Source: Candidatus Woesearchaeota archaeon (GTDB lineage: Archaea > Nanobdellota > Nanobdellia > Woesearchaeales > BS150m-G63). Taken from it: a stretch of 64,000 nt of DNA. This document shows, one piece after another, positions 14,796 to 15,845 of this stretch (position 1 is its first letter; every line of letters starts with the position of its first letter). A program made the translations under genes and the position numbers. The notes beneath the pieces were generated by a model, which ran no database searches, was not told the origin of the DNA, and saw nothing but the letters and a program-made list of their open reading frames with translations. The stretch is from contig JADHVD010000004.1 of NCBI GenBank assembly GCA_016784165.1, positions 11,624 through 75,623 of the forward strand, written 5' to 3'.

Positions 14796-15845
14796 ATGAA
14801 AAAAAGAGGGCAAATTACTCATGAGATCTATTTTATCATGATGGAAGTGTTTATAGCACTCGCAGTTGCTTTTTTTCTCTTCAAGTATGTAAATTTAGTT
14901 GTAGAAGACACAACTTTAGAAAGAACAATCCTATCAAGAGACTTGGCATTTCTTTCAAATACAGTCTATTCTGCTCCAGGAAACTTAGTTTACACATACC
15001 AAAGTAGCGCAAATCTTTCAATGTTTGATTATGCCTTTACTAAAGACCCAAATTCAAAGGAGTCACAGTTAAGAGTGCTTCAACAAGGAGTTGCAGCAAT
15101 ATCCTACCCTTTCTCTTTAAACACTCTTTTTGCAAGAGATATAGGTAAATCAGATAAACACACAGTATTCTCTCCACAAGAGATAATATTTCAAAAAGAA
15201 GAACAAGAAATAAAAGTTAAAAAAGAATTAATTCCACATTTAGAGGGGGCAGTTTGCCCAATAATCTCAACAAAAACAGACACACTAAACCAAAAAATAC
15301 TCCTAGATCCAGGAAAAGATTATACAAATCCAGGAGCAAATAATCTAATTCTTTCTTTAATAGAACATCAAATAAATTTAGACATTTCAATGGAAATAAA
15401 AAGATTATTACAACAAAAGTTTCCCAACGTAGAATTCACAAGAGAAAACACCAAAGCCAACCTAACAGAAAGATTAACAAAAATAAACTCAGAAAACGCA
15501 AACATCATACTAAGCATCCATACAGGAAATTATTCACCAACAAAAATAAACACATTCAAAATATATTACAATTTTAAATCAACTAAAAAAGAACCAATAC
15601 AAAAATTAGCTTGTTTCATATCTAACGAAATTTCAGAACAAACAGACCTTAAAACAACAACACTTCCATTAGAGATAGAAACCTTACCAGACTTAGATTC
15701 AAGAAGAATCTTAACACATTCAAACCTAATTCAATTATACCTAGAAGTGGGAAACATTCAAGCACCTGCAAATAATAATCATTTATTAGATTACCCTGAA
15801 ATATCTAAGGCAATAAAAGATGCAATTGAACTATATCACAGATAA
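14796..15845 (+). CDS. Pilin-like-anchored protein with an Amidase_3 (N-acetylmuramoyl-L-alanine amidase)-like domain, first Zn-ligand His replaced by Lys
   Basis: MKKRGQ|ITHEIYFIMMEVFIALAVAFFLF. Around aa 166-345: KILLDPGKDYTNPGA...LIEHQINLDISMEIKRLL...VEFTRE...LTERLTKINSENANIILSIHTGN...YLEVGNI is collinear with the Amidase_3 consensus (DPGHGG...E...TR...R...SIHaN...E.GF). Confidence 0.65.
   Translation: MKKRGQITHEIYFIMMEVFIALAVAFFLFKYVNLVVEDTTLERTILSRDLAFLSNTVYSAPGNLVYTYQSSANLSMFDYAFTKDPNSKESQLRVLQQGVAAISYPFSLNTLFARDIGKSDKHTVFSPQEIIFQKEEQEIKVKKELIPHLEGAVCPIISTKTDTLNQKILLDPGKDYTNPGANNLILSLIEHQINLDISMEIKRLLQQKFPNVEFTRENTKANLTERLTKINSENANIILSIHTGNYSPTKINTFKIYYNFKSTKKEPIQKLACFISNEISEQTDLKTTTLPLEIETLPDLDSRRILTHSNLIQLYLEVGNIQAPANNNHLLDYPEISKAIKDAIELYHR

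What the first reader, a model, noticed from the sequence alone, without database searches (positions are those of the whole stretch)
14796..15845. Adjacent Amidase_3-like domain on a pilin-like anchor with the first Zn-ligand His replaced by Lys
Seen in the sequence: aa ~166-345 align collinearly by eye with the N-acetylmuramoyl-L-alanine amidase (AmiA/B/C, CwlC) consensus:
- KILLDPGKDYTNPGA versus iDPGHGGkDpGA.
- LIEHQINLDISMEIKRLL versus lEkdinLdialkL.
- VEFTRE versus v.lTRd.
- LTERLTKINSENANIILSIHTGN versus l.eRv..An...adlfvSiHaN.
- LYLEVGNI versus vlvE.GFi.

The Glu, the second His and the catalytic Glu positions are present. The GHGG His is Lys (K174).

Inference: this is either a catalytically altered or dead amidase reused as a murein-binding module, or a variant metal site. 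Together with the neighbouring bifunctional hydrolase, the array carries modules for all three bond classes of peptidoglycan: glycan, amide and peptide.
Basis: partly seen in the sequence, partly recalled or inferred. Interest (0 to 1): 0.62.

Follow-up and report, generated by a model that had tools for sequence, protein, structure and literature searches.

The report
Archaeal pilin-like protein with eroding amidase head
A tiny DPANN-type archaeon carries a pilin-like surface protein whose head is a genuine bacterial-wall amidase domain lacking one zinc-binding histidine, one of many stages in a family-wide decay of that head.

Summary
ORF 14796-15845 (349 aa) has a full-length Amidase_3 domain (Pfam E 4e-19; Foldseek hits to CwlD, LytH and CwlV). 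K174 sits exactly where the first zinc-ligand His belongs, while E190, H242 and E317 are kept.

The Lys is conserved in the two closest orthologs, and the gene is under purifying selection (dN/dS 0.12-0.28).

The new context is a near-core gene family. It occurs in 168 of 201 genomes of the order and extends into sister orders. It sits at a fixed position in a deeply syntenic operon of about 18 pilin-like genes.

Only the N-terminal module (KRG leader, a roughly 54-residue helix, a small beta sheet) is universally kept. Among 138 species-level orthologs:
- 21 have an intact H/E/H/E site.
- 56 have a recognisable but mutated site.
- 27 have an unrecognisable C-terminal part.
- 34 have no head at all.

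The window protein is the mildest degenerate form. It keeps 26 of 36 signature residues, and 34 of those 36 are invariant in its clade.

The best reading is a modular pilin-like subunit whose amidase head is metal-impaired. The head is probably used to grip bacterial murein, or to cut it weakly, beside a neighbour carrying glucosaminidase-like and VanY heads. Activity is untested, and pilin identity is inferred, not shown.

The parts
14796..15845 (+). Whole ORF, 349 aa: pilin-like module, linker and Amidase_3-like head.
   Evidence: ORF list. Full-length homologs of 310-370 aa in 660 database clusters. Purifying selection, dN/dS 0.12-0.25.
14796..14810 (+). MKKRG leader: a class-III-like (prepilin-type) basic leader ending in Gly5. 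This is the putative prepilin-peptidase site. Glu falls at +5 of the putative mature end (QITHE).
   Evidence: Sequence. K3 is at least 90% conserved and 'KRG' is the family consensus. Cleavage is not shown.
14811..14972 (+). Predicted long N-terminal helix (aa 6-37 and 40-59). Its first half is hydrophobic, like the alpha-1 helix of type IV pilins.
   Evidence: AlphaFold2 models with pLDDT 88.6 and 88.9.
14985..15221 (+). Small antiparallel beta sheet (aa 64-142) packed after the helix. This is the globular part of the pilin-like module, with a low-confidence loop at aa 111-122.
   Evidence: This N-module is the part conserved in 168 of 201 genomes of the order and in sister orders. It has no significant PDB fold match.
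15255..15257 (+). Cys154, in the 'CP' motif of the linker. Predicted disulfide partner of Cys273.
   Evidence: C154 and C273 are both present in 126 homologs, both absent in 10, and never present singly (Fisher p = 2e-15).
15297..15827 (+). Amidase_3 (N-acetylmuramoyl-L-alanine amidase) fold domain, aa 168-344. It is compact and has no autoinhibitory helix.
   Evidence: Pfam E = 4.4e-19. PDB sequence hits. Foldseek hits to CwlD, LytH, CwlV and AmiC2.
15315..15317 (+). K174 (AAA), in place of the first zinc-ligand His of the DPGHGG motif. G175 is also replaced, by Asp.
   Evidence: Conserved in P0002, P0003 and G002. His is present at this column in 63 of 136 homologs.
15363..15365 (+). E190, the retained zinc-ligand Glu.
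15519..15521 (+). H242, the retained second zinc-ligand His (SIHTG). The position two residues later is Gly244, so there is no Asp or Asn fourth ligand.
   Evidence: Ligand scheme taken from LytH (PMC9245657).
15612..15614 (+). Cys273, in helix 'IQKLACFISN'. This helix is as conserved in degenerate members as in intact ones, so it is probably the docking face and disulfide to the pilin module.
15744..15746 (+). E317, the retained catalytic Glu (LEVGN motif).
   Evidence: Invariant in alignment A2. Kept in 109 of 136 homologs.
12915..14753 (+). Upstream operon partner, 612 aa. It has a pilin-like leader, a conserved carrier part of about 270 aa, a Glucosaminidase-like region and a VanY/M15 head.
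   Evidence: The N-terminal 270 aa are homologous to carriers that bear M23 or TPR heads in other genomes.
5168..18921 (+). Co-directional array of about 18 genes with class-III-like leaders. The amidase-pilin holds a fixed position in it. The array is followed by RPA, YdjM and RadA, as in distant relatives.

Best explanation
The gene encodes a modular, type-IV-pilin-like surface subunit of a small DPANN-type archaeon, probably Woesearchaeales.

Proposed architecture:
- An N-terminal KRG leader and a roughly 54-residue helix anchor it in the membrane, or in a pilus-like filament built from the products of the surrounding 18-gene operon.
- A small beta-sheet module and a disulfide-stapled linker carry an Amidase_3 head of bacterial origin.

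In the ancestor this head cut the MurNAc-L-Ala bond of bacterial peptidoglycan. In this lineage the first zinc ligand (His) has become Lys. By analogy with LytH H128A, this should strongly lower metal occupancy.

The head most likely no longer works as an efficient hydrolase. It is kept, with its groove residues under selection, as a murein-gripping or at most weakly active module. It would hold the cell or filament tip on a bacterial wall while the neighbouring subunit's glucosaminidase-like and VanY heads do the cutting.

What is shown: the fold, the substitution, its conservation, purifying selection, the operon synteny and the family-wide erosion.

What is inferred: leader cleavage, filament assembly, loss of zinc, murein binding, and bacteria as the target.
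For: - Domain and substitution.
- K174 is conserved, with dN/dS of 0.13-0.28 over the amidase part, across species separated by dS of 0.5-1.0.
- The query matches 26 of 36 signature residues of intact members. Intact members have a 10th percentile of 26 and a median of 29.5. Degenerate members have a median of 20. In the K clade, 34 of 36 of these residues are invariant, against 90 of 147 other positions (p = 5e-5). The site is therefore still under selection.
- The family context shows catalysis is dispensable. Of 138 orthologs, 21 are intact, 56 mutated, 27 unrecognisable and 34 headless. The tree needs at least 14 and up to 26 state changes. The query's 13-row clade has no intact member.
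- LytH H128A, the same ligand, binds 5- to 7-fold less metal (PMC9245657).
- The genome has no other Amidase_3 and no Mur ligase, so any murein target is foreign.
- The operon is syntenic down to 29% identity, and wall-hydrolase heads (VanY/GH73-like, M23, SLT) sit on neighbouring subunits.
- The C154-C273 pair covaries perfectly, which fits an extracellular location.
- Two T2SSE-type ATPases are in the genome, and a prepilin peptidase is in 26 of 31 relatives.
- Archaeal peptidoglycan hydrolases that kill bacteria, and Woesearchaeota murein transglycosylases, are published (PMC12352652, PMC9723730).
Against: - No assay exists, and neither zinc loss nor murein binding is shown.
- No pilin profile and no PDB pilin fold matches the N-module.
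- No prepilin peptidase was found in this 85.6%-complete assembly.
- Recognisable wall-hydrolase heads on the upstream neighbour are rare in the family: about 5 of 69 fragments next to amidase-bearing orthologs and 0 of 49 next to the rest. A murein-directed role may therefore hold only for some lineages.
- The best structural relatives, LytH and CwlD, are enzymes whose labile metal is stabilised by a partner. A two-ligand site rescued by a partner cannot be excluded.
Confidence: 0.45

Rival explanations
1. The head is still a working amidase. Zinc, or Fe(II), is held by E190, H242 and waters, or a partner subunit supplies or stabilises the metal as ActH does for LytH and GerS does for CwlD. 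On this view K174 is a tolerated or tuning substitution.
For: - Every other active-site signature is kept: D171, P172, G173, G180, E190, T215, R216, R226, S240, H242, G244, E317, G319 and N320. In the K clade, 34 of 36 signature positions are invariant.
- An independent H-to-K change occurs in P0046, inside an otherwise intact clade, with 28 of 36 signatures kept.
- The best fold matches are the partner-activated enzymes CwlD and LytH (PMC9245657).
- A conserved gene follows within 1-2 nt (15847-16428; 46% and 30% identity to its positional orthologs).
- The upstream neighbours of some intact members carry TPR repeats, as ActH does.
Against: - H128A in LytH loses most of its metal and its partner complex.
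- Lys is a poor zinc ligand at neutral pH (general knowledge).
- G175, which is 88% conserved in intact members, is also replaced, by Asp.
- The nearest relatives have lost two or three ligands, so selection for catalysis was already relaxed in this clade.
Confidence: 0.2
2. The head is a vestigial scaffold with no murein-related role. The family's conserved function lies entirely in the pilin-like N-module and its operon, for example adhesion to archaeal hosts or filament priming. The former amidase domain persists only as a folded bulk or as a protein-protein interface.
For: - 61 of 138 orthologs have no recognisable amidase part and 56 have mutated sites.
- The N-module alone extends to sister orders.
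- In degenerate members the best-conserved C-domain segment is the helix around C273 that docks on the linker, not the active-site loops.
- The upstream neighbours of most family members have no recognisable wall-hydrolase head.
Against: - In this protein's own clade the active-site signature residues are significantly more invariant than the rest of the domain (p = 5e-5).
- The query scores 26 of 36, within the range of intact members.
- The adjacent gene here carries VanY and glucosaminidase-like heads, so this lineage does invest in murein-directed modules.
Confidence: 0.2
3. The protein is not a filament subunit at all. It is a membrane-tethered ectoprotein held by an uncleaved N-terminal signal anchor, and the 'pilin' look is only a long transmembrane helix plus a small domain.
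For: - No pilin family or fold match was found.
- Many homologs have a polar spacer of 8-14 residues between KRG and the hydrophobic helix, which is atypical for class III signals.
- No assembly genes lie in the window.
- No prepilin peptidase is present in this assembly.
Against: - The helix is about 54 residues long and is followed by a beta sheet, the pilin 'lollipop' layout.
- About 18 consecutive genes share the same leader type.
- T2SSE ATPases are present.
- Peptidase_A24 is present in 26 of 31 relatives, including the same genus.
Confidence: 0.25

Closest known systems
Amidase_3 N-acetylmuramoyl-L-alanine amidases without an inhibitory helix (C. difficile CwlD 7RAG, S. aureus LytH 7TJ4, CwlV 1JWQ)
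   Same: Same fold (TM 0.75-0.82) and same motif order. E190, H242 and E317 correspond to the ligand Glu, the second ligand His and the catalytic Glu.
   Different: The first ligand His is Lys and the following Gly is Asp. The domain is fused to a pilin-like module, is encoded by an archaeon without murein, and activity is unknown.
Modular type IV pilins (S. sanguinis PilB with a vWA module, PilC with a lectin module; PMC8179133)
   Same: A small pilin module linked to a bulky functional module, encoded among other pilin genes, and proposed to be shown at the filament tip. PilB appears as a weak whole-chain Foldseek hit, 7BA2 at rank 42.
   Different: The published survey searched for a bacterial-type pilin signature (IPR012902), and its text has no occurrence of 'archaea', 'amidase' or 'peptidoglycan'. 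Here the pilin module matches no known pilin profile or structure.
Secreted archaeal peptidoglycan hydrolases (Halogranum Woldo and Danwoldo, PMC12352652) and the murein transglycosylases noted in Woesearchaeota MAGs (PMC9723730)
   Same: Archaea without murein encode bacterial-type wall hydrolase domains, presumably aimed at bacteria.
   Different: Those are Sec/Tat-secreted enzymes with PG-binding domains, or large SLT proteins. An Amidase_3 head on a pilin-like carrier, its operon, and its widespread degeneration are not described there.
Non-catalytic relatives of wall hydrolases used for binding or regulation (non-amidase PGRPs of the Amidase_2 fold; degenerate LytM factors EnvC and NlpD). 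Cited from general knowledge.
   Same: Loss of a metal ligand with retention of the fold and groove, and reuse as a recognition or regulatory module.
   Different: Different folds. No binding data exist for this protein. No comparable degenerate Amidase_3 binding module came up in one four-term search of the held literature.

Membership tests
Amidase_3 (PF01520) | Significant full-length profile match | tested here: met
   E = 4.4e-19, 69.6 bits against a cut-off of 27, profile positions 1-172 of 174.
Amidase_3 (PF01520) | Amidase_3 three-dimensional fold | tested here: met
   AlphaFold2 model with pLDDT 88.6. Foldseek hits to 7RAG, 5EMI, 1JWQ, 7TJ4 and 4RN7, with E values of 1e-10 to 6e-12 and TM (target) of 0.75-0.82.
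Amidase_3 (PF01520) | His-Glu-His zinc triad | tested here: not met
   The pattern is K174-E190-H242. The first His is replaced. It is therefore a structural member of the family, but not demonstrably an enzyme of it.
Amidase_3 (PF01520) | Catalytic Glu (E-x-G motif) | tested here: met
   E317 in LEVGN, invariant in alignment A2.
Amidase_3 (PF01520) | MurNAc-L-Ala amidase activity and zinc content | not testable with these tools
   Needs purified protein.
Type IV pilin / archaeal class III signal-peptide protein | Short basic leader ending in Gly, Ala or Ser, followed by a hydrophobic helix | tested here: met
   MKKRG|QITHEIYFIMMEVFIALAVAFFLF. KRG is the family consensus.
Type IV pilin / archaeal class III signal-peptide protein | Pilin fold (alpha-1 helix of about 50 residues plus a beta sheet) recognisable against known pilins | tested here: inconclusive
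   The model shows helices 6-37 and 40-59 followed by a 6-7-stranded sheet. Foldseek with the N-module alone finds no PDB match at E <= 0.001.
Type IV pilin / archaeal class III signal-peptide protein | Match to a curated pilin profile | tested here: not met
   No pilin family in Pfam or NCBIfam at E <= 1, for this protein or for the nine other array proteins scanned.
Type IV pilin / archaeal class III signal-peptide protein | Prepilin peptidase and assembly ATPase in the genome | tested here: inconclusive
   Two T2SSE ATPases pass the cut-off. Peptidase_A24 is absent from this 85.6%-complete assembly but present in 26 of 31 relatives, including the same genus.
Modular pilin (pilin module plus grafted functional module) | Two distinct modules joined by a short linker, encoded in a pilin gene cluster | tested here: met
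   Model. The array of genes with class-III-like leaders and its synteny. This depends on the pilin identity above.
Partner-activated amidases (LytH-ActH, CwlD-GerS type) | A partner protein that stabilises the active-site metal | not tested
   Only resemblance is available: best fold matches, a tightly coupled downstream gene, and TPR-bearing neighbours in some relatives.
Non-catalytic murein-recognition module | Binds peptidoglycan without cleaving it | not testable with these tools
   Needs sacculus pull-down and hydrolysis assays.

The most novel reading that the evidence does not exclude
Woesearchaeales-type archaea build a pilus-like filament whose tip subunits carry swappable bacterial-wall modules. 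In this lineage the amidase head has been converted, by a Lys that fills the former zinc site, into a metal-free murein lectin. This would be an archaeal counterpart of non-catalytic PGRPs. The lectin would dock the archaeon on a bacterial host while neighbouring heads open the wall. It would mean that a large, uncultured DPANN order interacts physically with bacteria rather than archaea, and that the operon's head repertoire predicts host type.
Probability: 0.2. Interest if true: 0.78.

Novelty: new variant of a known kind. Interest (0 to 1): 0.5.

Why it matters
Hosts and lifestyles of most DPANN archaea are unknown. This family is a near-universal operon component. Its head domains (amidase, M23, VanY, SLT, or none) are gained, eroded and lost lineage by lineage.

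That gives a readable genomic marker of whether a lineage engages bacterial cell walls. It also gives concrete proteins to test for binding and lysis.

The family extends the 'modular pilin' idea to archaea. It also provides a natural series from active enzyme to pseudoenzyme to domain loss for one fold. The single Lys substitution by itself is a modest curiosity.

Tried and rejected
- The search for related loci with the family alignment failed because no stretch was conserved enough. The single-protein scan found only the same-genus genome.
- Foldseek with the N-module alone gave no pilin or any other significant match. Pfam and NCBIfam gave no pilin family for any array protein. 'Pilin' therefore stays an inference.
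- I tested whether Lys or Arg replaces the lost His as a charge substitute for zinc. K/R is enriched at replaced His positions (29 of 123 against a background of 10.8%, p = 5e-5). The expected link to retention of both Glu residues was borderline in one data set (p = 0.05) and absent in the other (p = 0.53). The sequences are also not independent. The idea is not established.
- I tested whether amidase-bearing orthologs sit next to wall-hydrolase heads. About 5 of 69 upstream fragments had such heads, against 0 of 49 for the rest. The direction is right but the numbers are too few.
- Zinc-site geometry could not be checked because model coordinates are not exposed to the Python box.
- A pseudogene reading is rejected: the frame is intact in three species and dN/dS is 0.12-0.28.
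- Action on the organism's own wall is rejected: no Mur ligase is present.

Full report
**1. What is at the coordinates**

ORF 14796-15845 (+) encodes 349 aa. The window is archaeal. It carries RadA, RadB, RPA, PCNA and Cdc6 and is about 31% GC. It lies in an 865-kb assembly of 26 contigs that is 85.6% complete. This is a DPANN-type genome.

I did not verify the name. The only named relative record is labelled 'uncultured Methanosarcinales archaeon', which looks like a mislabel.

**2. The observation**

- Pfam Amidase_3 matches aa 168-344 over the whole profile, with E = 4.4e-19 and 69.6 bits against a cut-off of 27. NCBIfam's best hit is CwlD.
- phmmer alignments to the solved CwlD (7RAG) and 4RN7 put K174 on the His of DPGHGG, E190 on the ligand Glu and H242 on the second His, without gaps.
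- E317 (LEVGN) is the catalytic Glu and is invariant in a 56-sequence family alignment.
- An AlphaFold2 model built on that alignment (pLDDT 88.6, pTM 0.73) matches CwlD, Cwp6, AmiC2, CwlV, LytH and other Amidase_3 structures, with TM (target) up to 0.82.
- K174 is AAA at 15315-15317.

**3. Conservation of the Lys**

- The two close orthologs keep DPGKDY. They are P0002 at 82-83% identity, which is the same-genus genome G002 (locus L031), and P0003 at 77-78% identity.
- Pairwise dN/dS is 0.12-0.25 for the gene and 0.13-0.28 for the amidase part, at dS of 0.5-1.0. The gene is under purifying selection and is not a pseudogene.
- It is the only Amidase_3 in the genome.
- The genome has no Mur ligase, so any murein substrate is foreign.

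**4. The family**

An exhaustive HMMER search found 660 cluster representatives at E <= 1e-3. Most are 310-370 aa and align end to end.

In 136 of them the four catalytic columns read as follows:
- HEHE in 52.
- KEHE in 4: this protein, its two orthologs and the unrelated P0046.
- Something else in 80.
- E317 is kept in 109 of the 136.

On a tree built without those four columns:
- The intact/degenerate state needs 26 changes, and at least 14 of them are forced by well-supported branches.
- This protein lies in a supported 13-row clade with no intact member. Its neighbours read N-NE, S-NE, DSNE, NSNE, KSDE and HENE.
- Both His residues survive in different members of that clade, so losses inside it are independent.

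**5. Distribution**

- The Pfam Amidase_3 model finds a hit in only 41 of 201 genomes of the order.
- A profile of the whole family finds a match in 168 of 201 genomes, and in 130 of 152 high-quality ones.
- It also matches genomes of sister orders of the same class, there almost always through the N-terminal module alone.

I fetched 138 species-level orthologs and classified them with the family HMM:
- 21 have an intact HEHE site.
- 56 have a recognisable C-domain with at least one ligand replaced.
- 27 are long, but their C-terminal part is no longer recognisable.
- 34 are short (<215 aa) and consist of the N-module only.

The conserved core of the family is therefore the N-terminal module. 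The amidase head is an accessory that is eroding or lost in most lineages. K174 is one snapshot of that process, not a unique invention.

**6. This copy is not far gone**

- Of 36 C-domain positions that are at least 60% conserved among intact members, the query matches 26. Intact members have a 10th percentile of 26 and a median of 29.5. Degenerate members have a median of 20.
- In the three-species K clade, 34 of the 36 are invariant, against 90 of 147 other C-domain positions (p = 5e-5).
- The residues around the former active site are thus still selected. This favours a retained ligand-directed function, either binding or residual or partner-assisted catalysis, over a mere relic.
- In LytH, mutating the equivalent His (H128A) lowers metal content 5- to 7-fold and breaks the activator complex (PMC9245657). 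Efficient zinc catalysis is therefore unlikely without compensation.
- Basic residues are over-represented at replaced His positions across the family (29 of 123 against 10.8%). This hints at charge compensation for the lost cation, but the supporting contrast was inconsistent.

**7. The anchor**

Evidence for a pilin-like anchor:
- The N-terminus reads MKKRG|QITHE followed by a hydrophobic stretch.
- Both models give a helix at 6-37 and 40-59 followed by a small sheet, the pilin 'lollipop' layout.
- C154 in the linker and C273 in the head covary perfectly: both present in 126 homologs, neither in 10, one alone in 0 (p = 2e-15). This predicts a disulfide and an extracellular location.

Evidence that falls short:
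- No pilin profile matches.
- The isolated N-module has no significant PDB fold match.
- The genome has two T2SSE-type ATPases. A prepilin peptidase is missing from this assembly, although it is present in 26 of 31 relatives, including the same genus.

'Pilin-like' is therefore a reasonable inference, not a demonstrated membership.

**8. The operon**

- About 18 co-directional genes with similar leaders run from 5168 to 18921.
- Gene order, including RPA-YdjM-RadA downstream, is conserved in loci whose amidase-pilin is only 29-35% identical.
- The upstream 'carrier' keeps its first ~270 aa but changes heads. Here it carries a Glucosaminidase-like region (below Pfam's cut-off) plus VanY. In L038 it carries Peptidase_M23, and in L039 TPR repeats.
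- The third gene downstream bears an SLT domain in L039 but is headless here.
- Across the order such heads are sporadic on the upstream gene: SLT in 2, M23 in 1, Glucosaminidase in 1 and M15/VanY in 1 of 69 fragments next to amidase-bearing orthologs, and none in 49 fragments next to the rest.

**9. Comparison with what is known**

- Archaeal peptidoglycan hydrolases that kill bacteria are published (PMC12352652).
- Murein transglycosylases in Woesearchaeota MAGs are published (PMC9723730).
- Modular pilins are described in a survey built on a bacterial-type pilin signature, whose text never mentions archaea or amidase (PMC8179133).
- I found no description of this pilin-like Amidase_3 family, its operon position or its decay in the held literature.

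**10. Verdict**

- This is a new variant of known kinds, of moderate interest mainly because of the family-wide pattern.

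Noticed in passing
window 15255-15257 and 15612-15614 (C154, C273): Two Cys residues, one in the linker 'CP' motif and one in the head helix 'KLACFISN', covary perfectly across 136 homologs: both present in 126, both absent in 10, never single. A disulfide stapling head to carrier is likely.
   Followed up: partly
window 12915-14753; L038 473-2386; L039 7819-9954: The upstream carrier protein keeps a homologous N-terminal ~270 aa but carries different C-terminal heads in different genomes: GH73-like plus VanY here, Peptidase_M23 in L038, TPR repeats in L039. 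Its VanY part shows an H-x6-D motif (HLTGGAVD) and an E-x-x-H motif (EVWH) by eye.
   Followed up: partly
window 18058-18921; L039 12132-14300: The 287-aa last gene of the array shares its first ~160 aa with 605-722-aa proteins elsewhere, one of which bears an SLT lytic transglycosylase domain. Here the head is missing.
   Followed up: no
window 16458-18089: This 543-aa array protein matches 211-223-aa positional orthologs only at its ends (aa 6-79 and 422-538). It therefore carries an insertion of about 340 aa of unknown nature.
   Followed up: no
window 15820/15847-16428: The downstream gene probably starts at the second Met (15847), 1-2 nt after the amidase-pilin stop, as in L032. It is conserved at this position (46% and 30% identity to its positional orthologs) and is a candidate partner of the head.
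   Followed up: no
L039/L040 7819-9954; L041 2-1255: The upstream neighbours of some intact (HEHE) amidase-pilins carry TPR repeats. This recalls the TPR domain by which ActH activates the LytH amidase.
   Followed up: no
genomes G020, G147, G192, G027, G117 and G165 (rows): Several short orthologs are followed in frame by TAA stops right after the pilin module. This suggests heads removed by nonsense mutation rather than clean deletion.
   Followed up: no
L031 (CAZVVW010000016.1): The same-genus genome record is titled 'uncultured Methanosarcinales archaeon'. A 0.9-Mb, low-GC genome in an order of 0.6-2.7-Mb genomes looks like a DPANN lineage, so the label is probably wrong.
   Followed up: no
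own genome G000: No Peptidase_A24 prepilin peptidase was detected in the assembly, despite about 18 genes with class-III-like leaders. It is present in the 96%-complete same-genus genome, so it is probably missing because the assembly is incomplete.
   Followed up: partly
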